DNA of 64,000 nucleotides. Source: Lingula anatina. Its lineage: Eukaryota > Animalia > Brachiopoda. Made by a program: the position numbers and the translations under genes. The notes below the pieces were generated by a model. That model ran no database searches and was not told where the DNA came from. It saw nothing but the letters and a program-made list of their open reading frames with translations. The DNA lies in NCBI GenBank assembly GCA_051362555.1, contig CM120643.1:6200001-6264000 (forward strand), in the 5' to 3' direction. Positions 16,293 through 62,264 of this stretch are shown here, in pieces (position 1 is the stretch's first letter; each line of letters begins with the position of its first letter).

Positions 16293-16328
<36 letters not shown>

Positions 16329-18753: not shown

Positions 18754-18911
18754 CAGGGGCAGATACAGAGCTATTTTCTGACAGTCTTCCAAATTATGTT
18801 TGTTGATCCATCCTCCATTTTGACCGTCTTCCGACAGATAAAAAATTAGATACCTGTCAATGTAAACTTGAAAATCCGGAAGACCCAGAAGACGGCCTAA
18901 ATCCGCCCCTG
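18754..18911. mobile_element. MITE with CAGGGGC(G/A)GAT TIRs and 5-bp TSD ACATA (hAT5-like)
   Basis: acata|CAGGGGCAGAT...ATCCGCCCCTG|acata; homologous to 29069-29230 and 52427-52594. Confidence 0.85.
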
Positions 18912-29047: not shown

Positions 29048-29436
29048 GGGACCATTCCTATACTAACTCAGGGGCGGATTTAGGCCTTCCTCCGGGATCT
29101 TCCGGAAGAAGGTCAGATTTTTAAGTTTACATTGGCGAGTAACTAATCTTTTCTATTGGAAGACGCCTGACGGTCTAAAATGGAGGATGGATCAATAAAG
29201 ATAATTCGGAAGCCTGTCAGAAATTACCTGTAACTGTTGATCAATGTATTTCTGAGGGGATTCTTGCTAAATTGCAATCAACTTGAGCAGCTTAGATGTC
29301 TGTCACACCTACTGAAGCTGCTAAAGGGTAATTAATTATCAGTAGGCACCCAGACATCTAAGCTGCTAAGCTAAAGCAATTCAGCAAGAAATCCCTCAGA
29401 AATAAGTTGATTAACATTTAGTCTGGGAATGGTCCC
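29048..29436. mobile_element. Harbinger-type MITE (TTA TSD) with a nested hAT5-like MITE (29069-29230, TSD TAACT)
   Basis: tta|GGGACCATTCC...GGGAATGGTCCC|tta with long TIRs; inner taact|CAGGGGCGGAT...CCTG|taact. Confidence 0.85.
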
Positions 29437-30410: not shown

Positions 30411-31556
30411 ATTCCGAAGTGAAGCCCACCAGTACCAGTTCGATGTCAACCGATGTCTACACCTCCTAGGATTATTGACTTTACCTAGTAGCACCCTGGA
30501 TTATGCATTTATATTAAACTCTTCATCAGTATCATTTAAATTACATCTGGACACATTGAACTTTTTATTGCCTCCTTACAAACTTCGTTGGATTTAAATA
30601 AAACTGTTTGTTGATAAAAAGAACTCTGTTTCTTGGGATTGAACTTTTATTAGCACGCTACCTTTAGACTCAAAAACCGCTACAATATATAACTCTGCTA
30701 GTACTTTTTTATGTTTTACCTCAGATGTTTCAAGGATCGAACTCGGAGCTACTGAATAACACTTATAACACTGGGATCACCGGATCCCTACGTCTATTCT
30801 CTACCTCTTGTATCTGCAGGTCCTTCTCTCTCTCTCTCTCTCAAAAACCCCGCCCAACTGCATGTCGCTTTCAATCCCAAGACTTCCGGTACCAGATCAC
30901 TGCAACAAAGTACTCACCCTTTTGTCATCAAGAATGTGTTTGCATACATTTAAAGGGATGCTGGAATCGTGGAATGTCCTACTGCTTTAGATAAAACTTT
31001 AATGGTAACTCATAGATATATCTTGTCCTTGGAATAACGTTATTTCATTAACGTGTAAAATTTTCCCGCTCCGCCTAAGCCCGACTAAGTAGGTCAAAGA
31101 AAACCCGCAGTGAATACTGGGTCACATCTCGGTACATTCGGCAGATGAAGCGCCACAGTTTTACTCTGCGTCCAAGTTATTATATCTTTTGATTTTTTGT
31201 TTAGATATGATATCATTGATTATTGATAAAGAATAAATTATTGCAAAAAGTTCATTTTAAATTATTTTTTATTGTTATTATTATATATTTTCTTTTTGCT
31301 TCAACTTTTGCTGGATCTCAGCACTACTAACACAACGCTCAATTTGAGCAAATAGAGCATTTAAGGACCTTCGCATTTAGAGTGATTACCATTAAAAGTA
31401 AAATAAACGTAGCCTACTTGAAAATATTCTAAAGTCAATTTTTTCCCAAATATCCTGCAAATCTACTAGTAAGCCTACTTGTAGGCCTACTTTACTTTTA
31501 TAGACTGCGCTATCTAGAGACTATGCTTAGGCGATATTAGATGCGCGTTAATTTTT

Positions 31557-32580
31557 ATGTACAGACACAGATGTGTCTGTACATATTGCCATCACCTGCG
31601 TCTGTCGTCGCCGTCGCCGATGGCGATGGCGATGCCGATGGCGATGGCGATGCCGGCGCCGTGCACTTTCCTTGTAAACACGATAAGTGGAGGGCAGTTT
31701 TACTTTTTGGCTTTATATTTACAGAGCTGATGAATATTCATAAAATGCAGGTCAAGTTCGAAAATCAGCATGATCGGGCCATTATTGTAGAAGTTATGCT
31801 GTTTTTTCACTTTTCAGCATATTTTTCACATTTCCTCAGATTCAATTCTTAGGCATGTTAACAGTCTCATTATTAAACTAATAAGATACGTAAAAGTTTT
31901 TGTTTGACATTTCCTGCATCTTTACAACATTGTTAGTTGATTTTGTAAAAATGATGGTAAACTTGTTATCGTGTATTGTGTAATTAAGTGTCAAAAATGG
32001 AAATAAACACATATCATTGCAGTTTGTCAGATTCAATCATCCACTATGTTCAGAATCTCATAATGGAAGAAATTGGACATTTAACACTGCTCTGTTGATA
32101 TTTTTCCCATCTCATCAATTTTCTTAGTTGATCATATAAAAATGGCAGTAAACTGTTAATTTTGTTATATGTTAAAAATTGTTAAAAACTGAAAAAAAAA
32201 ACATTTCAGAACAGTGCTGTCTTGTTTACATTTTGGCATTTTCAAGTTGTGACTTTGAAATTCCATGGGCCTGAAGACCTTTGCTAGTCACATTTTCTGA
32301 ATATCCATGATACTAATATTTTATTATTAAAAATTGATGGTCATCATGCTGTTAAACATTATGTAATATTGCATCAAAATTTGGAAAAACCTATTTTGGG
32401 CACTGCTCCCATGATGACCATTTAAGAAAAACCATGTCACTTACTGTTCTCAAACAGTACAGTAAATATATATAGATGTGTCTGTACATATTGCCATCAC
32501 CTGCGTCTGTTGTCCCCGTCATCGCCGTTGCTGGCGCCGTGCACTTTCATTGTAAACACGATAAGTAGAAGGCAGTTTTA
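31557..32580 (+). mobile_element. HINE family 1, truncated copy plus a partial 5' end at ~32470
   Basis: ATGTACAGACACAGATGTGTCTGTACAT hairpin, (GCCGAT/GGCGAT)n microsatellite, core repeats. Confidence 0.9.
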
Positions 32581-32586
32581 CTTTTT

Positions 32587-34385
32587 ATGTACAGACACAG
32601 ATGTGTCTGTACATATTGCCATCACCTGCGTCTGTCGTCGCCGTCGCCGATGCTGATGCCGATGCCGATGCCGTCACCGTGCACTTTCCTTGTAAACACG
32701 ATAAGTGGAGGGCAGTTTTACTTTTTGGCTTTATATTTACAGAGCTGATGAATATTCATAAAACGCAGGTCAAGTTCGAAAATCAGCATGATCGGGCCAT
32801 TGTTGTAGAAGTTATGCTGTTTTTTCACTTTTCAGCATATATGCAACACTGTAAACACATTTTAAGGAAAACCGTTAGGCCTGTTGTCATGAAACTCACA
32901 GGAGTAATCAATCATACTAAAACAGGTCAAGTTCGAAAAATCAGCATGATCGGGCCATTTTTAGGGGAGTTATGCTTTTTTTTTTCATTTTTCAGCATAT
33001 ATGCAACACTGTAAACACAATATAAGAAAAACAGATAGGCCAATTGTCATTAAACTCACAGGAGTGGTCAATCTTACTAAAACGCAGGTTGAGTTCGAAA
33101 ATCAGCATAATTGGGCCATTATTTTAGAAGTTATGCTGTTTTTTCATATTTCCTCAGATTCAATTCTTAGGCATGTTAACAGTCTTATTATTTTACTAAT
33201 AAGATACGTAAAAGTTTTTGTTTGACATTTCCTGCATCTTTACAACATTGTTAGTTGATTTTGTAAAAATGATGGTAAACTTGTTATCGTGTATTGTGTA
33301 ATAAAGTGTCAAAAATGGAAATAAACACATATCATTGCAGTTTGTCAGATTCAATCATTCACTATGTACAGAATCTCAGAATGGAAGAAATTGGACATTT
33401 AACACTGCTCTATTAATATTTTTCCCATCTCATCAATTTTCTCAGTTGATCATATAAAAACGGTAGTAAACTGTTAATTTTGTTTTATGTTAGAAATTGT
33501 TAAAACTGGAAAAAAAAAACATTTCAGAACATTGCTGTCTTGTTTACATTTTGGCATTTTCAAGTTGTGACTTTGAAATTCCATGGGCCTGAAGACCTTT
33601 GCTAGTCTTATTTTCTGAATATCCATAATACTAATATTTTATTATTAAAATTGATGGTCATTATGCTGTTAAACATTATGTAATATTGCATCAAAATTTG
33701 AAAAAAAAAACTATTTTGGGCATTGCTCCCATGATGACCATTTAAGAAAAACCATGTCACTTACTGTTCTCAAACTTACAGGCAAGAAACATGGGACTAA
33801 AATACAGCTTCAGTAGGCAATGCAGTCTGTTTGGTAATTCTTACTGCCAGTTAAACGTTTTTTTTTTTTGTGAAAATTTAATTTTTCACATATTGGCATT
33901 TTCAAGGTGTGACTTTGAAGTTCCACGGGCTTGAAGACCCATGCTAGTCACATTTTCTGAAAATTCTTGATACGTATATTTTATTATTAAAAATTGACGG
34001 TCATTATGCTGTAAACCATTATGTAATATGGCATCAGAATAGAAGAAAACACAATTTTGGGTGCTGCTGCCATGATGACCATTATGGGAAAACCATGTTA
34101 CTTATGATTGCCAAACTTTAAAAAAAGAAATACAGGACTAAAATGCAGCCTGAGTTGGAAAAGCAGTCTAATTGGCTTCTTTTTCTGGAAGTTATACATT
34201 TTCAAAGTGTGAACTTGTTACACATTTTACTTACATTGGTATTACCTGTTGAGCATAATTAAAATTTGATGTTGAATTTGCAGTTTAACATAATGTACTT
34301 TTGCATCAGAATTGACAGTAGCCTATTTTGTGCATAGTTATTTCCTGTTTTTTGTCTGTACATTTGACAGCTTTGCTGCCTTGTT
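32587..34385 (+). mobile_element. HINE family 1, complete ~1.8-kb copy
   Basis: 5' subTIR ATGTACAGACA with adjacent IR, microsatellite, ~140-bp core tandem repeats, ~320-bp internal repeats, 3' subTIR TGTCTGTACAT, 3' hairpin GACAGCTTTGCTGCC, T-rich flanks, no TSD. Confidence 0.9.
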
Positions 34386-40789: not shown

Positions 40790-43700
40790 ACATGGATAAG
40801 ACAAAGTGCTGCTCTTGGTGCTGTCTTTCACTGCCTGCATTTTCATGGTAAGGGTACTCTGAAAAAAGAACAATATAACTGAAAAAAACTGAAAATTACA
40901 TTGGAAAGACTAGCAAATCCAAGGACTTAAAATAGTTAAACGTTAATAATTTTGTCAAATCTTGTCTAATATTTCTGAAATTTGTACAAATGATTCTTAA
41001 CAACAACAAGGCAGCAAAGCTGTCAAATGTACAGACAAAAAGCAGGAAATAACAATGTAGGCTACTGTCAATTCTGATGTAAAAGTACATTATGTTAAAC
41101 TGCAAATTCAACATCAAATTTTAATTATGCTCAACAGGTAATACCAATGTAAGTAAAATGTGTAACAAGCATAAGGCTTCAGGCCCATGGGAGTTCAAGT
41201 TCACACTTTGAAAATGTAAAACTTCCAGAAAAAGAAGTCAATTAGACTGCTTTTCCAACTCGAGCTGCATTTTAGTCCTGTGTTTCTTTTTTAAAAGTTT
41301 GACAATCATAAGTAATATGGTTTTCCCATGATGGTCATCATGGCAGCAATACCCAAAATTGTGTTTTCTTCTATTTTGATGCAATATTTCATAATGCTTA
41401 ACAGCATAAAGACCATCAGTTTTTAATAATAAAATATACGTATCGTATATATTTTATTATTGGATTGGATTTTCAGAAAATGTGACTAGCATGGGTCTTC
41501 AAGCCCAAGGTGGTTCTAAGTCACACCTTGAAATTGCCAATATGTGAAAAATTAAATTTTCACAAAAAACTGATTAACTGCCAGAAAAATTTACCAAATA
41601 GACTGCACTGCCTAATGAAACTGTATTTTAGTCCCATGTTTCTTTCCTGTAAGTTTGAGAACAATAAGTGACATGGTTTTCCTTAAATGGTCATCAAGGG
41701 AGCAGTGTCCAAAATAGGGGTTTCTTCAAATTTTGATGCAATATTACATAATGTTTAACAGGATAATACATGTAACCATCAATTTTTAATAATAAAATAT
41801 TAGTATCATGGATATTCAGAAAATGTGACTAGCAAAGGTCTTCAGGCCCATGGAACTTCAAAGTCACACCTCGAAAATGCCAAAATGTAGACAAGACAGC
41901 ACTGTCCTGAAATGCATTTTTTTCTATTTTTTAACAATTTTTAACATATAACAAAATTAACACTTTACTGCCATTTTTATATGATCAACTAAGAAAATTG
42001 ATGAGATGGGAAAAATATCAATGGAACAGTGTTTTTTGTCCAATTTCCTCCATTCTGAGTTTCTGAACATAGTGAATGAATGAATGAATCTGACAAACTG
42101 CAATGATAAGTTTATTTCCATTTTTGAAACTCTATTATACAATACATGATAACAAGCTTACCATCATTATTTCATAATCAACTAACAATGTTGTAAAGAT
42201 GCAGGAAATGTTAAACAAAGACTTTTACGTATCTTATTAGTTAAATAATGAGACTGTTAACATGCCTAAGAATTGAATCTGAGGAAATGTGAAACAAGAC
42301 AGTACTGTTATGAAATGCGTTTATTTCCATTTTTAACACTTTTTAACATAAAACAAAATTAACAGTTTACTGCCATTTTTATATGATCAACTAAGAAAGT
42401 TGATGAGATGTGAAAAATATCAATAGAACAGTGTCAAATGTCCAATTTCCTCCATTCTGAGTTTCTGAACATAATGAATGATTGAATCTTACAAACTGCA
42501 ATGATATGAGTTTATTTCCATTTTTGACACTTTATTACACAATACACCATAACAAGTTTACCATCATTTTTACATAATCAACTAACAATGTTGTAAAGAT
42601 GCAGGAAATGTCAAACAAACACTTTTATGTATCTTATTAATTAAATAATGAGACTGTTAACATGCCTAAGAATTGAATCTGAAGAAATGTGAAAAAACAG
42701 CATAACTTATAAAATAATGGCCCGATTATGCTGATTTTCGAACTTGACCTGCGTTTTAGTAAGATTGATTACTCCTGTGAGTTTCATGACAACAGGCCAA
42801 TCGGTTTTCTTTGAAATGTGTTAACAGTGTTGCATATATGCTGAAAAGTGAAAAAACAGCATAACTACTAAAATGGTGGCCCGATCATGCCGATTTTCAA
42901 ACTTGACCTGCGTTTTAGTAAGATTGATTACTCCTGTGAGTTTCATGACGACAGGCCAATCGGTTTTCTTCGAAATGTGTTAACAGTGTTGCATATATGC
43001 TGAAAAGTGAAAAAACAGCATAAATTCTACAATAATGGCCCGATCATGCTGATTTTCGAACTTGACCTGCGTTTTATGAATATTCATCAGCTCTGTAAAT
43101 ATAAAGCCAAAAAGTAAAACTGTCTTCCACTTATGATGTTAACGCTGAAAGTGCACAGCGACGGCGACGGCGACATGATCGGCGACGGCGACGACAGACG
43201 CAGGTGATGGCAATATGTACAGACACATCTGTGTCTGTACATAATAAAAATCTGTGATTAGATGATCTGTTGACTGTCTAATGAAAAGTGATTTTTGGGA
43301 CAGCAAATTTGGGAAAACTGAAATTTACATTGAAAAGACTGGCAAATCCCAGGACTTAATATAGTTAAACGTTAATAATTTTCTCAAATCTTGTCCAGTG
43401 TTTCTGAAATTTGTGCAAAAGATGCTTAACAAGAATAAAAATCTGTGATAAGCTGATCGAATGACTGTGTCTAATGAAAAGTGTCTTCTTGGGACAATAT
43501 CTTTGAAAAAACTGAAAAGTACACTGAAAAATCTGGCAAATTCCATGGCTTAAAATAGTTAAATGCTAATAATTTTGAAATGTGATTATAAAATAAAATA
43601 GCAAACGTGATGATTTGAGGTTGTTTGTGTAGGAGGTTGCAAATTACTTATAACTGTTATCTGGAAAACAATATATACCCAAACAAGACTTCTCCTTACT

Positions 43701-46700
43701 ATCAATGCCAGATGCAGATTACTCCTTACAATGGGTTTCTGGAATCGGTTGTTGTCATCACAACATTTGACAATGTCCTAAATCTTGCCACATATCATGT
43801 ATTGTACACATGGATAAGACATAGTGCTGCTCTTGGTGCTGTCTTTTGCTGCCTGCATCTTCATGGTAAGGGTGCTCTGGAAAAAGAACAATATAACTGA
43901 AAAAACTGAAAATAACATAGAAAACGCTGGCAAATTCCATGACATGAAATAGGTAAATGTTAATAATTTTTTTAAATCTTGTCCAATATTTTCAAAATTT
44001 GTACAAATGATGCTTAACAACAATAAAAATCTGTGATTAGATGATCTGTTGACTGTATCTAATGAAAAGTGTTTTTTGGGACAACATATTTGGGAAAACT
44101 GAAATTTACATTGAAAACACTAGCAAATCCCATGACTTAAAATAGTTAAACGTTAATAAAATTTTCAAATCTTGTCCAATATTTCTGAAATTTGTACAAA
44201 TGATGCTTAACAATAATAAAAATCTGTGATTAGACAATCTGTTGACTGTATCTAATGAAAAGTGTTTTTTGGGACAACGTATTTGGAAAAACTGAAATTT
44301 ACATTGAAAAGACTGGCAAATTCCATGGCTTATAATAGTTAAACGTTAATAATTTTGTCAAATCTCGTCCAGTGTTGCTGAAAATTGTACAAATGATGTT
44401 TAACAACAATAAAAATCTGTGATAAGCTGATCAAATGACTGTGTCTAATGAAAAGTATCTTCTTGCGACAATATCTTTGAAAAAACTGAAAATTACACTG
44501 AAAACACTGGCAAATGATGTTTAACAACAATAAAATAGTTAAATGTTAATAATTTTGCAATGTGAATATAAAATAAAATAGCAAATGTGATAACTTGAGG
44601 TTGTGTGTGTAAGAGGTTGCAAATTACCTATAACTGTTATCTGGAAAACAATATATACCCATACAAGACTTCTCCTTACTATCAATGCCAGATGCAGATT
44701 ACTCCTTACAATGGGTTTCTGGAATGGGTTGTTGCTATCACAGTATTTGACAATGTCCTAAATCTTGTCACATATCATGTATTGTACACATGGATAAGAC
44801 ATAGTGCTGCTCTTGATGCTGTCTTTCACTGCCTGCTTTTCCATGGTAAGGGTATTCTGGAAGAAGAAAAATATAACTGAAAAAACTGAAAATTACATTG
44901 AAAAGACTGGCAAATGCAATGAATTAAAATAGTTAATCGATAATCATTTTGTCAAATCTAGTCCAATATTTCTGAAATTTGTACAAATTATGCTTAACAA
45001 CAATAAAAATCTCTGATTAGATGATCTGTTGAATGTATCTAATGAAAAGTGTTTTTTTGGGACAACGTATTTGGGAAAACTGAAATTTACATTGAAAAGA
45101 CTGGCAAATTCCAGGACTTAAAATAGTTAAACGTTAATAATTTTGTAAAATATAATCCAATATTTCCGAAATTTGTACAAATGATGCTAAACAACAATAG
45201 AAATCTGTGATAAGATGATCTGTTGACTGTGTCTAATGAAAAGTCTTTTTTGGACAACATATTTTGGAAAACTGAAATTTACATTAAAAAGACTGGCAAA
45301 TCCCAGGACTTAAAATAGTTAAACGTTAATAATTTTGTCAAATCTACTCCAATATTTCTGAAATTTGTACAAATGATGCTTAACAACAATAAAAATCTGT
45401 GATAAGATGATCAGTTGACTGTCTAATGAAAAGTGATTTTTGGGACAGCAAATTTGGGAAAACTGAAATTTACATTGAAAAGACTGGCAAATCCCAGGAC
45501 TTAATATAGTTAAACGTTAATAATTTTCTCAAATCTTGTCCAGTGTTTCTGAAATTTGTGCAAAAGATGCTTAACAAGAATAAAAATCTGTGATAAGCTG
45601 ATCGAATGACTGTGTCTAATGAAAAGTGTCTTCTTGGGACAATATCTTTGAAAAAACTGAAAATTACACTGAAAAGACTGGCAAATTCCACGGCTTAATA
45701 TAGTTAAATGTTAATAATTTTGTCAAATCTTGTCCAGTGTTTCTGAAATTTGTACAAATGATGCTAACCAAAAATAAAAAATATGTGGTAAGATGATCTA
45801 TTGACTGTATCAAATGAAAAGTGATTTTTGGGACAATATATTTGGGAAAACTGAAATTTACATTGAAAAGACTGGCAAATCTCAGGACTTAAAATAGTTA
45901 AAAGTTAATAATTTTGCAATGTGATTATAAAATAAAATAGCAAATGTGATGATCTGAGGTTGTTTGTGTAAGACGTTGCAAATTACCTATAACTGTTATC
46001 TGGAAAACAATATATACCCATACAAGACTTCTTCTTACTATCAATGCCAGATGCAGATTACTCCTTACAATGGGTTTCTGGAAAGGGTTGATGTTATCAC
46101 AATATTTGACACTGTCCTAAATCTTGCCACATATCATGTATTGTACACATGGATAAGACATAGTGCTGCTCTTGGTTCTGATTTTCACTGCCTGCTTCTT
46201 CATGGTAAGGGAACTCTGGAAAAAGAACAATATAACTGAAAAAACTGAAATTTACATTGAAAAGACTAGCAAATGCAATGACTTAAAATAGTTAAACAAT
46301 AATCATTTTGTCAAATCTAGTCCAATATTTTCAAAATTTGTACAAATGATGCTTAACAACAATACAAATCTGTGACAAGATGATCTGTTGACTGTGTCTA
46401 ATGAAAAGTATTTTTTTGGACAACATATTTTGGAAAACTGAAATTTACATTGAAAACACTGGTAAAAGCCAGGACTTAAAATAGTTAAATGTTAATAATT
46501 TTGTCAAATCTTGTCCAATATTTCTGAAATTTGTACAAATGATGGTTAACAACAATAAAAATCTGTGATTAGATGATCTGTTGACTGTATCTAATGAAAA
46601 GTGTTTTTTGGGACACTTATTTGGGAAAACTGAAATTTACATTGAAAAGACTGGCAAATTCCATGGCTTATAATAGTTAAAAGTTAATATTTTTGTCAAA

Positions 46701-46955
46701 TCTAGTCCAATGTTTCTGAAATTTGTACAAATGATGCTTAACAACAATAAAAATTTGTGATAAGCTGATCAGTTGTCTGTCTTTTAAGTGTCAAGTTTAT
46801 GGGAAATTGACAATCAGAAGAGTGAGAAATAACCAAAACAAATATTTTAATATTGCAATGTATTATTTACTTTAAATAAAATAGAAAATGTGATGATTTG
46901 AGGTTGTTTGTGTAAGAGGTTGCAAATTCCCTATAACTGTTATCTGGAAAACAAC
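40790..46955. repeat. ~193-bp satellite array with periodic ~330-bp inserts, interrupted by a HINE
   Basis: aatctgtgat recurs at 44028, 44221, 44414 and on; insert blocks at ~43580-43900, 44560-44880, 45920-46240, partial at ~40790 and ~46860. Confidence 0.9.
41005..43242 (-). mobile_element. HINE family 1, complete ~2.2-kb copy, inverted relative to 32587-34385
   Basis: Both termini present; it splits a satellite unit ttaacaacaa|taaaaatctgtg. Confidence 0.9.
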
Positions 46956-47243: not shown

Positions 47244-47974
47244 TATACATTATATATTGACTGTATTGCCCTACCCCCTCTGAAAGTGTGACACCATTTT
47301 CTGTACTAACTCCAATAGTGTGAGGTTGGTCTCTCCTCCAGGACAGTCCCTGTCCTCATCACAGTACCTATTAGCAGGGAGACAGCCACCAGTGGAGCAG
47401 CAAAAATCTCCTCTCAAGTTGCTGGCAGACAGCCATTTTCATCAGTGACATTACCGTCATTACAGTGGTCTATTTCATCGCATACTTGAGCCTGTGTGAT
47501 GTAGCAGAAGTTTGCACATGTGAAAGATGAGAACAAGTTGGGAATGCTGGAACTGACAGTAGGTGACTACATACAACTTTTTCAATAGCAGTATATGAAT
47601 CAGCTGTGCAACAGTTTTTGAAATGGAAAAATATCTGTAATTTAAAAGCTGGAACTTAATTTTGTATCTTATTTTCTTACACAGAAGTTGAAATTTTCTG
47701 CATAAAATGAACCCATTACTTGTCCCTCAATTCATGAGTGTACTAAACTGACAAGCAATCTTTACAGCTTCATGAAGACCATTACCCAGTGCACTACCTG
47801 ACAACCCATTTCTTTGATATCCATCTTCATTCTAAGCAATACTTACTACACAATTCCTCATCACTGTTATCTCTACAATCATGGTTGTGGTCATATCTTC
47901 ATGACAATCGGAATAGGAAAAAAATTCTGTCGCATGATTTTGACGTTTGGACTAAGACTGGGTTTCCATCTGGA

Positions 47975-48157
47975 TCACTCCCTGGGGGTTCACGCTAAAT
48001 TGCTGTCAGCTTCCAGGAGCCGAGTGTGCACAAAAGTTAATTAACCCCTTACAGCTTTTAGTAGGCGGGACTGACATTTAAGTCGGCTAAGCTGACAGCA
48101 ATCTAGTGAGACTCCCCAGGGAGATAGATCGATCTAAATATCAGTGGGAATGGTCTC
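47975..48157. mobile_element. Harbinger-like MITE remnant
   Basis: tccctgggggttcacgctaaattgctgtcagctt / aagctgacagcaatctagtgagactccccaggga; ends GGGAATGGTCTC|TAA like the 29436 end. Confidence 0.55.
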
Positions 48158-48602
48158 TAAATGACTGAGCCTAGAAAAATTAATTTTATAATATAATTTT
48201 TTTGGTCAGATTAATTGGACCGGTCGAAATGCTTGGCACATTACCGCAAGGTGATATGGCGGCCATTATCACATACAAACTTATGTGGAGGACATGTGTG
48301 ATCCACTGGAAGACAATAAAAAACATCTTTAAAACAATCTACAGACTTTATTTTTAAGTGTCTTAAAACTGTTTCTTCAGTTTCTTTGACAAAGCAAAAA
48401 TTACCTAAGAGATTTACATTAAAATTCTTACATCAGTACAAATTCACCCAAATATATGAAAAACTTGCTGAAAGGCTGTGATCAAACAGCATTATAGATT
48501 CAAAAATTCACTAAAATATGAAAAGATCCAGAAGACGATGTGTTCTACCTAAGAGGATTTTAATAAATGAAACTTATGTTGTTATCTGACCATCTTTAAA
48601 AT

Positions 48603-48974
48603 TAGTCTGGAGTCATTGTGTTCCATTGTGGCAGTATAGTCCTGTGTCTCCTAGTACAGCGTAGTAGTCTGGAGTTATTGTGTTCCATTGTGGCAGTATA
48701 GTCCTGTGTCTCCTAGTACAGTGTAGTAGTCTGGAGTCATTGTGTTCCATTGTGGCAGTATAGTCCTGTGCCTCCTAGTACAGTGTAGTAGTCTAGAGTC
48801 ATTGTGTTCCATTGTGGCGGTATACTCCTGTGTCTCCTAGTACAGTGTAGTAGTCTGGAGTCATTGTGTTCCATTGTGGCAGTATAGTCATGTGCCTCCT
48901 AGTACAGTGTAGTAGTATGGAGTCATTGTGTTCCATTGTGGCGATATAGTCCTGTGCCTCCTAGTACAGTGTAG
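48603..48974. repeat. 62-bp minisatellite x6
   Basis: tagtctggagtcattgtgttccattgtggcagtatagtcctgtgtctcctagtacagtgtag, head to tail with no spacers. Confidence 0.95.
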
Positions 48975-49959
48975 TGTGGAGTCAGATGATGGACTGGAAA
49001 AGACAAAAAAGTCAATGACCAGGGTTTTTCCTCAAGATCCAGAATATTAGAATTACATCAAATAAACTGCAAAGAAATATTTAATAAAATAAATTTACCG
49101 AAAAAAGTGTTGTTGTAAGTCAACGCTCAAGCATACTGTACCAGCACTGATAATAAAGAGGTGGGTTTATAGTGCTTTCTGAAACTCCGGATGGTAGTGC
49201 TAGTTCACGTAAGTGGACACGCCATAGGAACTTTTAGTTGTTCATAGTTAAGTTCATATATTACTATTTCGACAGATGACTCAAAAGAAACAAGAAAATG
49301 GCCCACTTATAAATTATGTACGAAGGAATAACGTCAGTTCTTCATTTTATTGCCTCACCTTCATAAGGCATTGGGTAATTGCAGATGAAAAGGGAATGGC
49401 AAAACTGAAATAGATGACTGCGTGCAATCTTGCTAGATCTCCAAGATCTCTTTTAATCTGCAGCGTCAACATTCGGCAGCATTTTGTAAAAAAAATCTTC
49501 ACCAGCACATTGCATCGTGATGTGAACAGTGAACAACTGACACAGTCGATACCATATGTATCCGTCACTTTAGATGTCTCATCCTGAATTCACCGATTAA
49601 GTTTGTTAATAGAATCTATAACAAAACCATCTAAGAAAAGTGTCCTGATGTATGGTGAAACTCAGTGTGCAGAACGTTTGATGAAAAATCCGACTTTTCA
49701 TCGTCACCCTTTGCCTTGTCATATAAAATTGTTTAGTATAGATGGCGCTATGCAAGAGGTGAGACTTAAAATTTGTCGAGGACTGCGGCCAGTATCAGCA
49801 ACAGGTTCACCGCCTGCTTTCTAAGAAACTCGTGCGAGGAGGGAGAGAGTTCTGGAACCGCAACAAATATGACCAGGGTCCAGTCACTGTGATATATATT
49901 ACGATATATTGTGATTTCTATTTAGTAGAAAGACTCAAGGTCGAGAGCTTCAACGAAGC

Positions 49960-50015: not shown

Positions 50016-50070
50016 CCTTTATACAATAATTATTCCTGTTTATTGTTTTAGTAAACAAAGCAAAGAGACA

Positions 50071-52823
50071 ATGTCTACACAGTCGCTGGTAAGTTTTATT
50101 TTTTATTCAAAACTGAAATTCTGTAGTTCAATGTAAGCCCACACAGCGCTTTTTTTCCCGTCGTTCATGTTTTTATGTGATTAATTAATATTCTAAATGA
50201 AATTCTTAAAAATTTCTTGTCACATGACGATTTGCTGATCATTCTGGTAATGGTACAAATGTAGTTTACATCACAAACTATACCAAATAAAGATACAAAA
50301 CTCTATGTATCCCGTTAACATGATTTCTTTAATTTATTGTACATATTGCAGATAATAGCTGATATGGAAAATGAAATAAAGAAAGAAGAACAGTGTGCTC
50401 GTAAGTTGTGTGTGTGTTTGTATAATCAGACTGTATGTGTTTTATTATACAACGGGCCTAAAACTACTCTTGCAATTTTTTGTTGTTACATAAATAAAAA
50501 AAAGATTTAATTTGTTCATAATAAGAAAGTAAGATATCCTATTCTTTATTTACATTAATTAAGTGGTCAGTTTGAATGTCTGTAATGTAAATATCAAAAA
50601 CGATATATTGATAGTATTTCTTTCTATTTTACTTTTTACTTTGAACAGCCAAGGCCACTGTAAGAGTTTTCTTAACCAACAACTATTTAAAGGCCAAAGT
50701 GGTGGGCAGGGGAACTGCCCTCGGGAGATGGGACCCCCCAGAAAGGTGTGAACCTGTCAAGGTTCACTGATATGGGGGTCCCATCCCTCAGGGCAGAATT
50801 TCTCCTGCCCAAGGGTCAAATATAGAATGGAAATTCATTAAGCCACAAAATGTAAGTATGAGACTTTTTTTTAAAAAATAATGATCTCAGGTAAAAATGA
50901 TTTTCTTTAAAATTGAAAAAGAAAATTTAAAGTCTGATAAGTTTAAGTATTTATTAAAACCTTCATTCCTTTCTTCTAGTGTATTTGATTTATCAGTGAT
51001 TGTAAATATTGGTAAACATTTTATTTTTCATTTTAGACATTAACATATCTTTAAGTTATTTATTTGTTTGTTTTTTCATTCATTCATTCATTCTTTAAAT
51101 TTATTCAGCCTTACCACCCTGGGTCTGGCTGGACATGGGAGCCTGAACCCTTTAGGAACAGGTGCCTCCAGGTGACCACTAAGGACAGCATGGAAGTGAC
51201 CTGTACTTGCGGAGAACTGGACATGGAAATAAAAGGTGCTTGAACTCATAATTCTCGTAACCTTTTAAATGTGTCATGTACAACATTTGGAAATAAAAGA
51301 TTACTTGATCTCACTATCCTATAAAAAAACTGTAGAAAAATGATGAAATGGTCCTTAAATATTGTCAAATACATTTAAGGCTTTATTTTAGTGTATATCA
51401 TAACTTGTAAATAATAAATGAATGTGCCATCTTATTCCAGAGTGGGACTGCATGTACAAGCCTGAAGTCCACACAAGTGGTAAGTCCACACCATTGCTCT
51501 ATTCAATCAACTTGATGCATTTTTTATCTTTTAGGAAGGATTCATGAAATAAAATTACAACAACACCCTGACTCACAGGGTGCAAGTCTGGACCCTCAGG
51601 GGCTGTTGACAATGAATTTGGAGACCTAGCTAATGTGCACTAACTCCATGAAAACTCTCACTGAATACAATCAGGTTAACAGACTAACACGCTTCTCTTT
51701 GTCTCCAACATACTCCAACATACTCACATAATTGGTATTCCTTAAAATTCAATTCTGTTCTTTCAGGTGATACTAAAGAAGAGAATAATGTAGCAATTGT
51801 TAGGAACCTAAGCATTAAGGAACTAGGTAAGGCTGGAATCACAGTAAAATAATAGTGTTATGAATTTTAATATACTTGTACACACACACACATACACTAA
51901 CAAACACACATACCGGTACACACACACATATTCACTACAAGCATGTTGCTCAATCAGGTCGTTAGCATACTTAAGAAGATAATTTATTGATTTTTAAGTC
52001 AATTAAATCTTGGAATGTGTCTTCATCAAATTGTAATAAGTCTACTGAATCCTTTTTGAACATGCACAGATATGGAATGTTACATGTAAGTTTTCACTTG
52101 CTATCATTTTTCTCTTTTGCTGATATCAAAGACACAAAGAGTGTGTCAGATGCTGAGGGCAGTGAGGAGAGAGGTAAGACAGTAAGGTCACTTTAAGGGG
52201 GGAATGTACCCAAATATCGCTAAAAATCATCATTTTGGGGTTTTTATGTCTAATTATTGGTCAAATGTGTATCTAACATGTAACGGAATAACCTTTTTAC
52301 ATTTTGAACAAAAGATATGTTTTTTCTGAGGATTTTGATGCTGCACTCATCGGCACCGGTGGCTTGGTCTTTTCATTTAACACACTTAAAAATGTACACA
52401 CACACAAACAGACTCTCAGACACAAACAGATTGAGGCTGGGGTCTTCTGGGTCTTCTGAAGATGTCCAGAATTTTTTATGTTTACATTGATCAGGATCTA
52501 ATTTTTTTGTAGGATGGATCCTACAAATAATGGAGGATGGATCAACAAACATAATTTGCAAGGCTTTCAGAATATATTTCTGGATCCAACCCTGACAAAC
52601 ACTGTTTAATTTTAATTGAATGTGTCTTTGACTATGTAAAATAATGTATTGAATCTTTGTTAATGTGCACAGACATGGAATGTTTAATTTGTGTTCCATT
52701 TTTTCCTTCAGTTGATGTCAAAGACACAACAACTATGACAGAGGACGTGAAGGAGAGAGGTAAGACAGCAGGGTCAATAGAATAGGGATCTATTTATTAC
52801 ACTGATGACGTGATTGTGCATGT

Positions 52824-52866
<43 letters not shown>

Positions 52867-55012
52867 GGTACTGTACTTGTATGCATGTTGCACAAGCTAA
52901 GTCTGGCCTTTGACAGACTTAAGAAGATACTTTATCTTCTGAAAATTGATGTTTTTGTTGTGTAAAGATTGAACACACATAATGTTGATTTGAAAATTCA
53001 ATTTAATTCTGTTCTTTCAGTTGATACCAAACTGAAAGACAAGAACAATGTAACACCTGTAAACCCACTAAGTATGGAGGAGATAGGTAAGAGAGGAATC
53101 TCAGTAAAATAGTTATGACTTTTAATATGCTGTACTTATGAAACACACATGCACACACACACATACACTTACAAACACACATGCACGCACACACACATAC
53201 ACACCACAAGCATGTTGCTCAAGCAAAGTCTTTAGCATAATTAAGAAGATAATTTATTTTTAGTCATTTAAATATTTGACTATGTCTTCCATAAATTGTA
53301 ATACTGAATCCTATTTGAACATGCACAGATATGGAATGTTAAGTTTTTATTCGATATCAATTTTATGTACAGACACAGATGTGTCTGTACATATTGCCAT
53401 CACCTGCGTCTGTCGTCGCCGATGGCGATGCCGTCGCCGTGCACTTTCCTTGTAAACACGATAAGTGGAAGGCAGTTTTACTTTTTGGCTTTATATTTAC
53501 AGAGCTGATGAATATTCATAAAACGCAGGTCAAGTTCGGAAATCAGCATGATCGGGCCATTATTGTGGAAGTTATGCTGTTTTTTCACTTTTCAGCATAT
53601 ATGCAACACTGTAAACACATTTCAAAGAAAACCGTTAGGCCTGTTGTCATGAAACTCACAGGAGTAATCAATCTTACTAAAACGCAGGTCAAGTTCAAAA
53701 ATCAGCATGATCGGGCCACTATTTTAGTAGTTATGCGGTTTTTTCATTGTTCAGCATATATGCAACACTGTAAACACAATATAAAAAAAACAGAAAGCCC
53801 AATTGTCATTAAACTCACAGGAATGGTCAGTCTTACTAAAACGCAGGTTGAGTTCGAAATTCAGCATAATCGGGGCATTATTTTAGAAGTTCTGCTGTTT
53901 TTTGACATTTCTTCAGATTTCCTCAGATTTAATTCTTAGGCATGTTAATAGCCTTATTATTTAAGTAATAAGATACGTAAAAGTGTTTGTTTGACATTTC
54001 CTGCATCTTTACAACATTGTTAGTTGATTATGTAAAAATGATGGTAAACTTGTTATCGTGTATTGTGTAATAAAGTGTCAAAAATGGAAATAAACTCATA
54101 TCATTGCAGTTTGTCAGATTCAATCATTCACTATGTTCAGAATCTCAGAATGGAAGAAATTTGACATTTAACACTGTTCTATTGATATTTTTCACATCTC
54201 ATCAATTTTCTTAGTTGATCTTATAAAAATGGCAGTAACCTATTAATTTTGTTGTATGTTAAAAAAGTGTTAAAAATGGAAATAAACCCATTTCAGAACA
54301 GTGCAGTCTTGTTCCTTTAGCCAATATCAAAGACTCAGAGATTGTGTCAGATGCTGAGGGCATCAAAGAAAAAGATAAGACAATAAGCTTAGGACAATCT
54401 AACGGGGAATTAATTTAACACACTTAAAAATGTAAACACACACAGATGGACTTTAGGTGGGAGACTCTCACACACAAACACTGAGTTTAAATTCACTGTT
54501 CAGTGATCTAAATTTTTGAATGTGTCTTTGACTATGTTAAATAATGTATTGAATTCTTGTTGTGCACAGGTATGAAATGTTTAATTTGTTTTCCTGTCTT
54601 TCTTCAGTCAATATCAATGACACAACAACTGTGAAAGCAGACGTGAAGGAGAGAGGTAAGACAGTAGGGTCAATAGAATAGTAGGGTCAATATTTATTAC
54701 ACTGATGGAATGTGATTGTGCATGTACACACACACACACACACACACACACACTCCTTATGTTGTGCCAACACGGTTTGTGCTTTTGGCATGTTTAAAAT
54801 AATATTGGCAGAATTGTTTATTCCAAATACTGGTAAAAGTGTTTCATTGAAACTTCATACATGAAATATGATATTGCACTGACTTATACTTTTACCTCTT
54901 AGTAAGTAATATTGTATTATACATTTCAGCTCCAAAGAATCGCCGCCAATCTAGGTGGAGGAGGGTATTGAATCTGTTCACGTCTTGCTTCAGACGGAGG
55001 GCACGAACATAA
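50071..55012 (+). CDS. Orphan micro-exon gene, 123-159 aa, charged low-complexity protein with a basic Cys-containing C-terminus
   Basis: Exons 50071-50088, 50352-50400, 51767-51826, [52120-52173], 52712-52759, 53021-53086, [54321-54374], 54608-54655, 54930-55012 (TAA); GTAAG donors, YAG acceptors, open frame throughout; UTR exon from 55377, AATAAA 55459. Confidence 0.75.
50704..50810. mobile_element. Intronic GC-rich hairpin MITE
   Basis: gggcaggggaactgccctcgggagatgggaccccc / gggggtcccatccctcagggcagaatttctcctgccc; inner gtgaacct / aggttcac. Confidence 0.7.
52427..52594. mobile_element. hAT5-like MITE, TSD ACAAA, intronic
   Basis: acaaa|CAG...CCCTG|acaaa; the paralogous intron at ~54465-54485 has a single ACAAA. 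Confidence 0.8.
53365..54312 (+). mobile_element. HINE family 1, 3'-truncated, inserted in an intron T tract
   Basis: 5' hairpin, microsatellite and core repeats; flanks match the uninterrupted paralogous intron at 52050-52120. Confidence 0.9.
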
Positions 55013-56188
55013 ATGGTTATTCTTATTCTTCTTCTTCTTATTATTATTATTATTAATTAAATAATTCTAAACACTTCAGACATTAAGAAATGAAGAAAAG
55101 TCAGTTTTTTTTAAAAGAATTCATTTATTACACATTTACAGAGAAGTTGATTTTGTTTGTCTCTTTGTTTTGATGGTATCATAACTAAGTAAGCTTTCAG
55201 TTTTTTAGAGGAAAACTATGTCAAACAGCTGGTAAAACTGTAAATTAAAGCAGCAAATTAATTATATCACAGCAGCCAGGAGCTGGTGGTTGAAGAGTTA
55301 CTGTCAACATCTATTTACACCTAACTGAATGTACGTTTTAACTGAATTACATTGTAATATTTTCATCTTTTTTCAGGGTCGTCAGTGCAGAACTATATGT
55401 ATCATTGCCTCTGTAGCAGCCAGTTAAAAACTGCAAAATGTCATTCTCTTAATTTTACAATAAAATATTAAATTTTTGTAATCAGATGAGTTTTGTTTTT
55501 CTTTTCTTAATTGAGGGTACCATTAGGGAGGGGTGATCATAGTTCATGGGAAATAAAACCATTAATTTACAAATCACAGTAAACAAAACTTTATGCATAT
55601 CTCACCAATAATGCTAGTTGAAAACTGTGAAAATTACGAATTACCAGGTATAAGGCTTAGTTTCACGAAGGGCAAAGAATAAAAAGCCACATTTGCGAGT
55701 CACAGGAATGAGGTGCTTCACGGAATATTGACATTTCATGCATCTCAGAGAAATAAAAAGTGGCTTTCACAGATAACAAAATACCCAGTGGGGCTCTTTT
55801 AATTAAAAAAAGTTTGAAAAAGCAAAATAAACCAATTTTTGTATAAAGGCATTTGGGATGTGATGCAAGAAACCAGCACTTGACTTTTTTTTTTTTTTTT
55901 TTACAATAAATGAAACACTATAGTAATTACCTCATTCCAATAAAACAACATTTGATTTCTGATTTAAGTTTTAAAGTTTGAGGTTTATCTCGAATTTTTT
56001 ATCAAATTCTCTTTTTATTTCATTTATTAAACTTAAGAAATAATCAATACATGGTACAAATTTTTAACTATATTTAAATATATACATAAATACTCATACT
56101 CACACACATGTACCATATCATATGGCTCAATTACTGAAAACTTCTCTTTTGGTTTTATATTCCAGTATGTCCATGTTTAAATACAAAA

Positions 56189-59123: not shown

Positions 59124-59926
59124 TTAGGTAGTAAGGCAGCTGGTCTGAAGCATAACATTGTTGTTGTTCGTTGACGGGAGTCCCTTCACTGTACCCTTCT
59201 CTGCAAACTGAATGATGTAATAATTGACGTTATCAACAACGCTTACTGACGGTTGGCTGATGGACCCAGCATCGCGAAGAACCTGCAACATTCCCGCGGC
59301 TGCACCGGCGACGAGAGGGGACGCCATTGACGTCCCACTTTTCTCTATCCAACCGTTGGTATTAGCGTAGTTGGCGGCCCTTATTTTCCTCCCTGGAGCG
59401 TAAATATCGACGCACGGTCCGATGTTACTAAATGAAGCCAAGTAATCATCTATTTGGGTGGCGCCGACTGTGAGGGCTCCGCTTACGCTTGCCGGGGATA
59501 CATTACACGCATCGGCCTTGTCGTCATTTCCAGCGGCGACTACCACTGGAATGCCTGCATCCAGCACCGCGTACACGGCGTCATTTATATACGTGGTATA
59601 CGGAAAACCGATTGATATATTTATTACTGATAGACGTTTGTTTTGTTGAACCCGTGTCTTTATCCAGTTTAGTCCTGCCAGGAGGTCCGAAGACGAACAT
59701 GTTGTTGCGTCGCATACCTTGACGGGGATGAGGGTGACCTTCTTGGCTGCTCCATAGGTGGCGCCTCCTAAGGTACTGGCCACATGGGTACCATGACCAT
59801 GGGTGTCTCTGGTATCGGAGAAAGAACTCGCGTGCTATCCTGTAAAAACAGCAAAGAACTTTGAGGAGAACCGTCCTCTTTCTGATTTTTGTGCCGAGTC
59901 ATCCCCTCTCTTTCTCCCTCTCTTTC

Positions 59927-59959
<33 letters not shown>

Positions 59960-62264
59960 CTCCTTCTATATCTCTCTCTACCTCTATCTTCTGAAATTTT
60001 AGTTTTATGAAACCTTGGACATAATAACAAAATTCGTTATTTTGTCCAAGATGAAACTTACCTGGCAAAACTCTTCCTCCGAAGTCACCATGCACTGTGA
60101 TCAGGATTAATTCCAGTGTCCATGACGTATGCGTCTATTCCAGAGCCGAGCGCCCAGGTGGCGAAACGGTCATCATCCGGAGAGTAGTCTATTCTGTCTA
60201 AATTCTGTATAATAAATACGAAATTCATATCAAGATACATCTTTTTTTCTTGGTGGGGGTCAGTGGTGTTATGACAAATGTACTCAGAAGAGAGGCTGTA
60301 TGCAGTATGCAGTAGTGTCCTCACACAGAGAAACTATGAATCATTAAACACACACACACACACATACACACACATACACACACACTAAAATGTAGAGCCT
60401 ACACATGCATACACATGCACATGCGGTGATATTTACCCATGTTTCAGCAGCCGGGAAATACCCTTCACAATGACTTAGTTCTAGCGACATTTCTTTAGCT
60501 TGTTCGATTTCTTCAATATCGCCAGTAAGTTGGCGAAGCAGTTGCACGTCACTAGAAAAAAATTGAAGTACTTCAGTTACGATGATAATTATATCGCGGA
60601 CATCAGGACAAAATATGCATATTTAAAAATAAATTTGTGTGGAATTTCTTCCCAAATCATACGTATTATCAAATAAAGTTTAACTATGATATCTAAAAAA
60701 AATCATATACTGGATAAAAAGATGAAGAAAATATAATTTAGATTGTAAGACATAAAGGAAAAAAAATCAAATAACAAATAATTAATATTATACCAAATTA
60801 AATGGTTGCTTTAGTCTGAACCAATGCTCTCCATCGAAAAGGAATGAGTTGACAAAAACAATACCTATCATTTATATCCCTAAGAATGACGAAGCTGCTT
60901 TTTCTACTAAACTTCACTCTTTGTCGGGAACCTCTTCCTTTCAGGGTGCGACGGACTGTAAGGGAAATATAATTGAAGCTGTAAATTGTAAGTGTGAAAC
61001 GGGTAGGTAGAATATATTGATTATGAAATGAGATATTTGATAACCAATTTTCGGTATATAAAAACGACTCAAGACTAATAAGTACGGTTAACTGCACCTT
61101 ATAGTAGACACATCTGCATACAGATCATAATTGATTTAATTTAACTACATTGTAGTTTATTCTAATTTCGTTTTGAAAATTATCTATTAAGTAGTTTACT
61201 TTCTTTTTGGTTATAAAATTGGTTAGAAGTTTTATGTGAGCTTCTTGTATGTCCTCTAAAATATTTCGCAATTAAAACAGGTATGCCTTTAAGTAAAGAC
61301 TACGTAAATAGTTTTGGCACCAACATGTAAGTTTCTCTTTTGTGCTACATGTATTCTGACACATAAATACAGAACGGTCCTACACGCCATCAAATACTAC
61401 ATAATATGTATAGGAATAATGTATCTGCAACCGGACTTAGGATGGTTCTATTCTGTCGCTTATCATCTTTTCTCAAATTTTAGTATTCTTGGGTTTCTGA
61501 ATACATAACTTCTTATTTTGCCAGTCTCCGGGTGCATGCCATTGCCAACGTGTTGTCTTTGCTCATTGTGGACTTACAAGTCCGAGGATCACATATGGCG
61601 CGACCCACTTGAAAGCGTGCCGAGATTTAACTGGGACGGCGCGAGTGGGAGGCGGGAAACCATTGTCGAATACTAGGTACATGTACATGTATGTGGGACA
61701 TTTGTAGATAGTTATTTACCACTAAGCATTAGTACGGAAATAAAACTGAATTGTACTACGGAACTGAATTTTTCAACAATTTAAAGTGGTGCACCTACTT
61801 CTTCCATACTTGCCACCAGGCAGAAGACGGGCAATGTATTCATTGGGAACGGCCGTACCATCCGTGGGGGTTATCAGGGGCACTAGAGAAAAAAAAGTAA
61901 AGTGATAACAACAACTTTGATAAATAGATGTTATATATATCATCGATTTGCCAAATTGACTCTATTTGAGTCGTTTAAGAAAGAAGCAGTAACGTTACAG
62001 GGGATCTACGCGGGGTTCATATTTAACCTCATTTAATTACGTACCTAAACCTTTCTCCTCGGAGATGTCTATCAGTCCTTTTTCCTTCATCATCTTTTTC
62101 ATTTCTGCGGGGTTTTCCCTTTTCATGTTCTTTAGTCTTCGGTTCTTGGGAATGTTTTCTATCTTAAACTTCAGTCCGGGTGGTGTCTCCTCGCTCTCAC
62201 TGGCATGCACCTGCTCTAACGCGAGAAGCATGAATAGCGCAGAGGCAAAGAGCAAATATTTCAT
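59124..62264 (-). pseudogene. Secreted S8A subtilisin (proteinase K/aqualysin-like) prepro-protease, 6 exons, disabled in this sequence
   Basis: Signal peptide MKYLLFASALFMLLALEQVHA; exons 62264-62045, 61882-~61814, 60955-60865, 60551-60437, 60204-60062, 59839-59124; I9-like VPNEYIA..IEEIEQ; W|NLDRID; triad YVMDTG, HGHGTHVAS, SGTSMASP, oxyanion AAGN; 7-nt insertion gives TGA 60087-60085; in-frame TAG 59837-59835. Confidence 0.9.

What the first reader, a model, noticed from the sequence alone, without database searches (positions are those of the whole stretch)
50071..55464. Hidden orphan gene built from a duplicated triplet of symmetric micro-exons
Seen: after an 18-nt and a 49-nt exon come phase-1/phase-1 exons of 60, 54, 48 and then 66, 54, 48 nt, all multiples of 3 and ending AG|GTAAG (except one), with homologous introns. 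Peptides: RDTKEENNVAIVRNLSIKEL, ADIKDTKSVSDAEGSEER, VDVKDTTTMTEDVKER, VDTKLKDKNNVTPVNPLSMEEI, ANIKDSEIVSDAEGIKEK, VNINDTTTVKADVKER. Any subset can be skipped in frame. Known: schistosome micro-exon genes diversify this way, but those are secreted; this one has no signal peptide. Inference: a lineage-specific, combinatorially spliced disordered protein.
Basis: partly seen in the sequence, partly recalled or inferred. Interest (0 to 1): 0.7.

Follow-up and report, generated by a model that had tools for sequence, protein, structure and literature searches.

The report
Broken glycogen-binding gene with micro-exon tail
The tiny duplicated exons are real and are spliced in RNA of near-identical copies, but they form the tail of a lamp-shell (Lingula) gene with a known starch/glycogen-binding domain rather than an orphan gene; this copy is broken, and in working copies the tail likely acts as a floppy spacer of variable length.

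Summary
Two of them encode a CBM20 starch/glycogen-binding domain. The closest relative, Lingula anatina XP_023930636.1, has the same domain followed by similar micro-exons. It is in the CBM20 alignment of a 2026 paper on the glycophagy receptor STBD1-alpha. The window's copy is disabled: two opposite frameshifts with a TGA in the domain, Trp to Cys, one dead acceptor, one dead donor, and a 953-bp repeat inserted beside an exon. Polyadenylated RNA of the same species label splices these exons (42 reads over 7 joints). Those reads lack the lesions, so they come from intact copies. Some joints show exon orders absent here, so tail length varies between copies or isoforms. Regulated combinatorial splicing is not shown. 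Earlier scan notes report other symmetric-exon arrays in this genome, but none on this gene. Verdict: an unannotated, broken member of a known family with an undescribed repeat-exon tail; modest interest.

The parts
50052..50088 (+). E1, 37-nt exon with ATG at 50071; it has an AG acceptor, so at least one exon lies further upstream
   Evidence: splice sites; estimated sense depth about 2-3 in X1/X2; no joint listed
50352..50400 (+). E2, 49 nt, phase 0 to 1, N-terminal lead-in to CBM20
   Evidence: 11 of 14 aligned residues identical to residues 3-16 of XP_023930636.1; sense depth about 5
50649..50851 (+). E3, 203 nt, phase 1 to 0, first two thirds of the CBM20 domain; broken by two opposite frameshifts (near 50734 and 50815) with an in-frame TGA at 50768-50770
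   Evidence: Pfam CBM_20 E 2.8e-4, 21.1 bits, under the 23.3 cut-off; pieces match the paralogue at 22/28, 19/25 (other frame) and 10/12; RNA reads show the two indels
51109..51235 (+). E4, 127 nt, phase 0 to 1, end of CBM20; the last conserved Trp codon reads Cys here
   Evidence: 41 of 42 residues identical to the paralogue; 51210 C>G in 20/20, 19/19 and 1/1 reads
51441..51479 (+).
   Evidence: GT..AG joints E4>E5 (2+7 reads) and E5>A1 (6+3 reads); a second, diverged version in 5+5 reads
51767..51826 (+). A1 micro-exon, 60 nt, phase 1/1
   Evidence: joints from E5 and to B1
52120..52173 (+). B1 micro-exon, 54 nt; acceptor is TG (dead) in this copy
   Evidence: A1>B1 joint in 8 reads of X1
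52712..52759 (+). C1 micro-exon, 48 nt
   Evidence: 19 of 21 residues identical to the paralogue's last micro-exon and read-through
53021..53086 (+). A2 micro-exon, 66 nt
   Evidence: estimated sense depth about 5-6; no joint listed
53361..54313 (.). 953-bp interspersed repeat inserted in the T-run of the polypyrimidine tract of B2; 5' hairpin, GTCGCC-type microsatellite, three 159-bp repeats
   Evidence: about 90% identical copies at 32583-33544 and 42293-43244; absent from the homologous intron of unit 1
54321..54374 (+). B2 micro-exon, 54 nt; donor is AT (dead) in this copy
   Evidence: 13 and 15 reads over 54335; reads with the B2-type end are spliced to C-type and B-type exons
54608..54655 (+). 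C2 micro-exon, 48 nt
   Evidence: sense depth in its bin 2.3 and 3.3 in X1/X2
54930..55012 (+). candidate terminal exon, phase 1, 26 further codons to a stop, basic with one Trp-x-x-Val and one Cys; ATTAAA at 55056
   Evidence: acceptor and frame; sense depth 0.78/2.03 and 0.68/0.82 in the two bins; no joint seen, so inferred

Best explanation
The locus is a disabled copy of a Lingula gene with an N-terminal CBM20 starch/glycogen-binding domain followed by a tail of tandemly duplicated symmetric micro-exons, and intact copies likely work as STBD1-alpha-type adaptors in which CBM20 would grip glycogen while the tail acts as a passive, floppy spacer. Shown: the domain, the exon structure, the lesions, and splicing of these exons in RNA from intact copies. 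The A, B and C exons descend from one exon-plus-intron unit. Because every unit is phase 1/1 and a multiple of 3, units can be gained, lost or skipped without breaking the frame, so copies drift in tail length and order. Inferred: the tail is disordered and has no motif of its own. A short basic C-terminal peptide (candidate exon 54930-55012) would contact membranes or Atg8 and so bring glycogen to autophagic membranes, as shown for oyster STBD1 and yeast Atg45. The window's copy is predicted to make no working protein.
For: CBM20: E3 read with X at the stop hits Pfam CBM_20. Its only database hit (1 of 9 candidates, E 7.6e-10) is L. anatina XP_023930636.1, which passes the Pfam cut-off (33.3 bits), matches glucoamylase SBD 1ac0 (E 0.0044) and returns CBM20 clusters in the Atlas (28 of 30 feature hits). 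That protein runs E2-E3-E4 and then a 14-residue A/B-like and a C-like micro-exon. PMC12913940 lists 3 STBD1-alpha, 1 STBD1-related and 1 GPCPD1 genes for L. anatina and aligns this protein with two close paralogues. Splicing: 7 exon joints, 42 sense reads in X1/X2. Broken copy: TGA at 50768, indels shown by reads at 50734 (3 of 13) and 50815 (5 of 6, 5 of 5), Trp to Cys (39 of 39 reads in X1/X2 have Trp), TG acceptor, AT donor, repeat insertion. The 50815 difference is not in a C run. The head-to-head LDL-receptor-repeat neighbour is also in pieces. Passive spacer: exons differ between the two units at 38/162 sites against 76/458 in introns (Fisher p 0.06) and 47/243 in near flanks (p 0.32); dN/dS is about 0.6 on 51 codons; the six exons hold no aromatic residue and so no Atg8-motif core.
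Against: No binding, localisation or disorder was measured for any Lingula protein. The paper's tree file was cut, so I could not see whether XP_023930636.1 is one of its three STBD1-alpha genes or the 'related' one; by eye another Lingula protein (XP_023931029.1) looks closer to oyster STBD1 in the trimmed alignment. The terminal exon rests on bin depth only; its helical moment is matched by 30% of shuffles, its Trp-x-x-Val has basic flanks, and the paralogue's model ends differently, by reading through the C donor. The RNA comes from other individuals, so an intact allele at this locus cannot be told from a paralogue. Joints E1>E2, E2>E3 and E3>E4 were not listed; the last two rest on the paralogue's gene model.
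Confidence: 0.62

Rival explanations
1. Regulated length tuning: intact genes skip or include tail exons by tissue or feeding state, which sets the distance between the glycogen particle and a membrane.
For: All seven tail exons are phase 1/1 multiples of 3. A C>B2-type joint (2+3 reads) fits skipping of A2, while A2-like sequence is itself covered about 5-6 deep. Symmetric, alternatively spliced exons tend to encode disordered segments (PMC3632108, abstract).
Against: At least two copies are expressed (two E5 versions). A B2-type>B1-type joint (4 reads, 2 starts) cannot come from forward splicing of this locus, so different genomic arrangements can explain the joints. No C>A2 joint was listed. 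Short reads cannot phase exons to a gene.
Confidence: 0.2
2. This locus is a live gene in the species: the assembled individual carries a null allele (or assembly errors), and the RNA reads come from its intact allele.
For: Reads follow the same order E4-E5-A-B as this locus, unlike the RefSeq paralogue model, which lacks E5; some reads differ little (cleanest reads have 1-2 other differences on E4, E5 and B1).
Against: Six lesions of five kinds; one indel is outside a homopolymer; the neighbouring gene is decayed too; all listed sense reads at 51803 and 51774 in A1 differ from the window (14/14, 7/7; 10/10, 7/7); the neighbouring subtilisin has close copies on two other scaffolds, so duplicated segments exist.
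Confidence: 0.2
3. One reading: an orphan, wholly disordered protein made by splicing the 49-nt exon straight to the micro-exons.
For: E3+E4+E5 total 369 nt, a multiple of 3, so that skip keeps the frame and avoids the stop.
Against: That joint is not among the 15 listed; A1 is entered from E5 in 9 reads; E4 is the deepest single-copy-type exon; B1 and B2 cannot splice normally in this copy.
Confidence: 0.03

Closest known systems
STBD1-alpha of lophotrochozoans (oyster STBD1; PMC12913940, abstract, sections 7, 8, 10, passages and three supplementary files seen)
   Same: Single N-terminal CBM20, no N-terminal hydrophobic segment seen in E1-E2, short non-catalytic C-terminal half; lineage-specific duplication; the closest relative XP_023930636.1 is in that paper's CBM20 alignment.
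   Different: The tail here is an array of duplicated symmetric micro-exons with no aromatic residue, whereas oyster STBD1 has three candidate Atg8 motifs after the domain. The paper's main text never mentions exons ('exon' 0 hits). The window's copy is broken and is not among the five Lingula proteins it lists.
L. anatina LOC112041521 / XP_023930636.1 (with XP_023932861.1 and XP_023933041.1)
   Same: E2-E3-E4 colinear (41/42 identical in E4), followed by A/B-like and C-like micro-exon peptides.
   Different: On another scaffold (648 kb; the window's neighbour gene is on a 259-kb one); intact CBM20; its model has two tail exons and no E5.
Yeast Atg45 glycophagy receptor (PMC11145338, passages seen)
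   Same: N-terminal glycogen-binding domain, a linker, and a C-terminal membrane-binding segment is the layout inferred here.
   Different: Homology was not tested; Atg45's motif and amphipathic helix are shown by experiment, while here both are guesses.
Schistosome micro-exon genes (MEGs) and VAL-6 (PMC4350168, passages seen)
   Same: Runs of short symmetric exons that allow in-frame skipping; VAL-6 likewise joins a known domain to a micro-exon stretch.
   Different: No signal peptide; micro-exons make about 43% (369 of about 849 nt) of the coding region, not most of it; a conserved domain; a free-living brachiopod; exons are recent tandem copies of one unit.

Membership tests
CBM20 domain proteins | Match to the CBM20 profile (PF00686) | tested here: met
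   Paralogue 33.3 bits, above the 23.3 cut-off. The window's E3 alone, frameshifted and read with X, gives 21.1 bits, E 2.8e-4, under the cut-off; it matches the paralogue piecewise.
CBM20 domain proteins | Site-1 residues (oyster W36, K69, W83, N88) and site-2 Trp (W104), as named in PMC12913940 section 8 | tested here: inconclusive
   By eye in the paper's trimmed alignment and the 1ac0 alignment the paralogue keeps all five (W44, K78, W94, N101, W118). The window's DNA keeps the four site-1 codons, but the last Trp is Cys and the frame is broken.
STBD1-alpha | Single N-terminal CBM20 with no catalytic domain (unlike laforin or GPCPD1) | tested here: met
   Paralogue of 172 aa with CBM_20 only above cut-off; no other coding domain found between E4 and the candidate stop.
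STBD1-alpha | Falls in the bilaterian STBD1 clade of a CBM20 tree | not testable with these tools
   The tree file was cut, the figure supplement was too large to read, and metazoan CBM20 sequences were not on hand as usable proteins. The count of three alpha genes matches three close Lingula paralogues, which is suggestive only.
STBD1-alpha | Atg8-interacting motif [WFY]xx[LIV] after the domain | tested here: inconclusive
   None in E5 or the six micro-exons. One Trp-x-x-Val in the unconfirmed terminal exon, with basic flanks; one Trp-x-x-Leu in the paralogue that uses the domain's own last Trp.
STBD1-alpha | Binds glycogen and Atg8-family proteins | not testable with these tools
   Needs co-sedimentation and co-immunoprecipitation.
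Schistosome MEGs | Most of the coding region in very small symmetric exons | tested here: not met
   369 of about 849 coding nt (exon lengths, terminal exon inferred).
Schistosome MEGs | Signal peptide, secreted or surface-anchored | tested here: not met
   E1-E2 and the paralogue's N-terminus are polar and charged, read by eye; no predictor was run and an upstream exon is unresolved.
Schistosome MEGs | Many isoforms by exon skipping | tested here: inconclusive
   One joint type (5 reads) fits skipping, but paralogues confound it.

The most novel reading that the evidence does not exclude
Lingula has expanded a subfamily of glycophagy receptors whose spacer is a modular ruler: micro-exon units of 13-22 residues are added by duplication and removed by regulated skipping, which tunes how far a glycogen particle is held from an autophagic membrane by a basic C-terminal anchor. 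It would be a mirror image of vertebrate STBD1 with an adjustable arm.
Probability: 0.15. Interest if true: 0.55.

Novelty: new variant of a known kind. Interest (0 to 1): 0.27.

Why it matters
It turns an apparent orphan into a further, unannotated and broken copy of a family recently tied to glycogen autophagy in invertebrates, and shows that the family's tail in Lingula grows by micro-exon duplication. If tail length is regulated, it offers a natural series for testing whether spacer length controls selective autophagy of glycogen. If it is not, it is an ordinary case of frame-neutral exon duplication in a linker, seen here in a pseudogene.

Tried and rejected
No whole genome is held, so paralogous loci could not be read. 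A profile of the micro-exon peptides found nothing in the word-indexed search (0 of 2304 candidates). In the full HMMER scan it found one hit, a 973-aa ankyrin-repeat protein matching through a short repeated word, rejected as chance. No indexed RNA holder was listed; nine runs were offered by species label, of which five were laid (X1, X2, X4, X7; X1, X2, X4, X5), about 6% of each run and 25% of X7. The first lay was swamped by the inserted repeat, and 91 joints were not shown. X4, X5 and X7 gave no listed exon joint. Single-sequence AlphaFold2 of the paralogue failed (mean pLDDT 34) and was not used. The Atlas gave no usable hit for the candidate terminal exon. The metagenome scan found no relative (0 of 212 stretches). 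Faster-than-neutral evolution of the micro-exons, as in MEGs, was tested and is not significant (p 0.06 and 0.32). An amphipathic helix in the terminal peptide is not supported beyond composition. Mutually exclusive use of A/B/C is rejected because A>B and B>C joints exist. Paper searches for CBM20+Lingula, STBD1+CBM20+alternative splicing+exon and Lingula+micro-exon each returned 0 papers. Searches of earlier scan notes near this place, by words and by the paralogue's sequence returned nothing.
Full report
Observation. The two triplets and their introns align as a tandem duplication, and A, B and C with their flanks align with one another (B-C flanks 69% by BLAST), so all six descend from one exon-plus-intron unit. 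Two splice sites are dead, not one: B1 has a TG acceptor and B2 an AT donor. A 953-bp repeat with other copies in the window sits 7 nt before B2.

Organism. The neighbouring subtilisin exon is reported at 100% identity to Lingula anatina LOC106180969; earlier scan notes on this genome also say Lingula (unchecked notes).

Missed exons. A splice-site scan found three more exons between the 49-nt exon and A1: E3 50649-50851 (203 nt, phase 1 to 0), E4 51109-51235 (127 nt, 0 to 1) and E5 51441-51479 (39 nt, 1/1); the phases chain without a gap. E3 read with X at its stop hits Pfam CBM_20 (E 2.8e-4, just under the cut-off) and weakly the CBM20 domains of solved glucanotransferases (best E 0.098). 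Its single database hit, 1 of 9 candidates, is L. anatina XP_023930636.1. That 172-aa protein has a CBM20 above cut-off, matches the glucoamylase starch-binding domain 1ac0 and returns CBM20 clusters by features and by structure in the Atlas. It is colinear with E2 (11/14), E3 (22/28, 19/25 and 10/12 in pieces) and E4 (41/42), and continues with a 14-residue exon-sized peptide that starts like A and ends like B2, then a C-like peptide. The micro-exons are therefore the tail of a CBM20 gene. It lies on a different scaffold from the window's neighbour gene.

This copy is broken. The middle of E3 matches the paralogue only in another frame; two opposite frameshifts enclose it and put a TGA at 50768-50770. 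The last conserved Trp of the domain is Cys. With the two dead splice sites and the inserted repeat this makes six lesions. The head-to-head neighbour, an LDL-receptor class A repeat gene, is also in pieces. A decayed duplicated segment is the simplest reading; a null allele cannot be excluded.

RNA. Nine runs were offered by species label, none indexed as a holder; five were laid in part. In X1 and X2 (poly(A), one study) sense reads cover the exons and four intron bins are empty. Estimated depths are E2 about 5, E3 about 4, E4 14-19, E5 10-11, A1 8-13, B-type 19-26, C-type 25-34, A2 5-6 (B and C include reads displaced from B2/C2, which were outside that stretch). Seven of the 15 listed joints are exon joints; the other eight lie at a CA microsatellite. 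The seven are E4>E5 (2+7 reads, GT..AG), E4>a diverged E5 (5+5), E5>A1 (6+3, GT..AG), A1>B1 (8+0), B2-type end>C-type (2+7), C>B2-type start (2+3) and B2-type end>B1-type start (0+4), 42 reads in all; the between-letters were matched to B2 and C2. X4 and X5 show none of these joints. The reads are not from this sequence. They carry the Trp codon (20/20, 19/19, 1/1), a 1-nt deletion at 50734 (3 of 13 in X1, where the depth includes opposite-strand repeat reads; 0 of 7 in X2) and a 1-nt insertion at 50815 (5/6, 5/5), and differ at fixed sites in A1. Two E5 versions mean at least two expressed copies or alleles. The B2>B1 order cannot arise by forward splicing here, so other arrangements exist. 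C>B2 fits skipping of A2 or a copy without it. Joints E1>E2, E2>E3, E3>E4, E2>A1 and C1>A2 were not listed.

Evolution of the tail. Between the two units, exons differ at 38/162 sites, introns at 76/458 (p 0.06) and near flanks at 47/243 (p 0.32); dN/dS is about 0.6 on 51 codons, and the lack of stops is expected 41% of the time by chance. Sequence is thus weakly constrained at best, and part of the divergence may postdate loss of function. Exon length differences are all multiples of 3, against 3 of 11 intron gaps. The six peptides are 43% charged with no aromatic residue, which argues for a disordered spacer without an Atg8 motif; disorder is inferred from composition.

How it likely works. 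Shown: domain, exon layout, lesions, splicing in intact copies. Inferred from the family: PMC12913940 (abstract, sections 7, 8 and 10, passages, and supplementary alignment, gene table and review file seen; figure supplement too large and tree file cut) shows that oyster STBD1, with an N-terminal CBM20, binds glycogen and GABARAPL2. It counts three STBD1-alpha genes in L. anatina and aligns XP_023930636.1 with two close paralogues. By eye the paralogue keeps the equivalents of the binding residues it names. Yeast Atg45 pairs an N-terminal glycogen-binding domain with a C-terminal membrane-binding helix (PMC11145338, passages). An intact Lingula copy would thus bind glycogen through CBM20 and reach a membrane or Atg8 through a flexible arm. 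The candidate terminal peptide is basic and has a Trp-x-x-Val, but neither its use nor its helix is established. I put the whole account at about 0.6: the family assignment is strong, the broken state of this copy likely, and the passive-spacer role moderate.

Comparison. It works like STBD1-alpha and probably belongs to it; clade placement could not be checked. It is not a schistosome-type MEG, which by PMC4350168 (passages) is mostly micro-exons and carries a signal peptide; the nearer structural parallel there is VAL-6, a known domain joined to a micro-exon stretch. Symmetric tandem exons encoding disordered segments are a known pattern (PMC3632108, abstract), and unchecked scan notes report other such arrays in this genome. 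Three paper searches found no description of this exon layout in the family; the library lacks most subscription journals, and the unread figure supplement of PMC12913940 may bear on how the Lingula proteins are classed.

Verdict. A real feature, misread as an orphan: an unannotated, disabled CBM20/STBD1-alpha-like gene whose tail is built from duplicated symmetric micro-exons that are spliced in intact relatives. New variant of a known kind; interest 0.27.

Noticed in passing
window 47301-49480, minus strand: A decayed LDL-receptor class A repeat gene lies head to head with the CBM20 gene. Fragments hit PF00057 at E 6.8e-5, 0.062 and 0.065 (all under cut-off), with stops and frame changes. 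A strong minus-strand donor lies at 49359, and minus-strand RNA 60-110 deep with a few fixed differences covers about 49440-49720 in X1/X2.
   Followed up: partly
window 49742-49758: Possible upstream coding exon: an ATG, five codons and a good AG|GTGAG donor in phase 2, which matches an open frame through the E1 acceptor at 50052. The peptide resembles an N-terminal acylation motif lacking Gly2 (motif recalled, not from a call). No RNA support seen.
   Followed up: partly
window 53361-54313; copies at 25648-25970, 31553-32226, 32474-33544, 41891-43244: Abundant, heavily transcribed interspersed repeat with a 5' hairpin, a microsatellite and 159-bp internal repeats, inserted in T runs. It looks like a non-autonomous Helentron-type element (label recalled, not tested).
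   Followed up: partly
window 59124-62263, minus strand: Subtilisin-like protease gene, matching L. anatina LOC106180969; its best non-Lingula hits among longer proteins come from metagenomes and bacteria, and close copies lie on two other scaffolds. A bacterial origin is possible but was not tested.
   Followed up: partly
window 51767-54655 and XP_023930636.1: Tail exon lengths are 66, 60, 54, 48 and (inferred from the paralogue's peptide) 42 nt: steps of exactly two codons. This may be chance.
   Followed up: no
window 44000-46950 and 48541-49036: A satellite of about 193 bp and a tandem repeat of 62 bp lie upstream.
   Followed up: no
window 15852-16406: hAT transposase C-terminal dimerisation fragment (PF05699, E 6.2e-6).
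   Followed up: no
window 52449-52594: A short interspersed repeat in the B1-C1 intron, absent from the second unit, with copies at 18754-18874 and 29095-29222.
   Followed up: no
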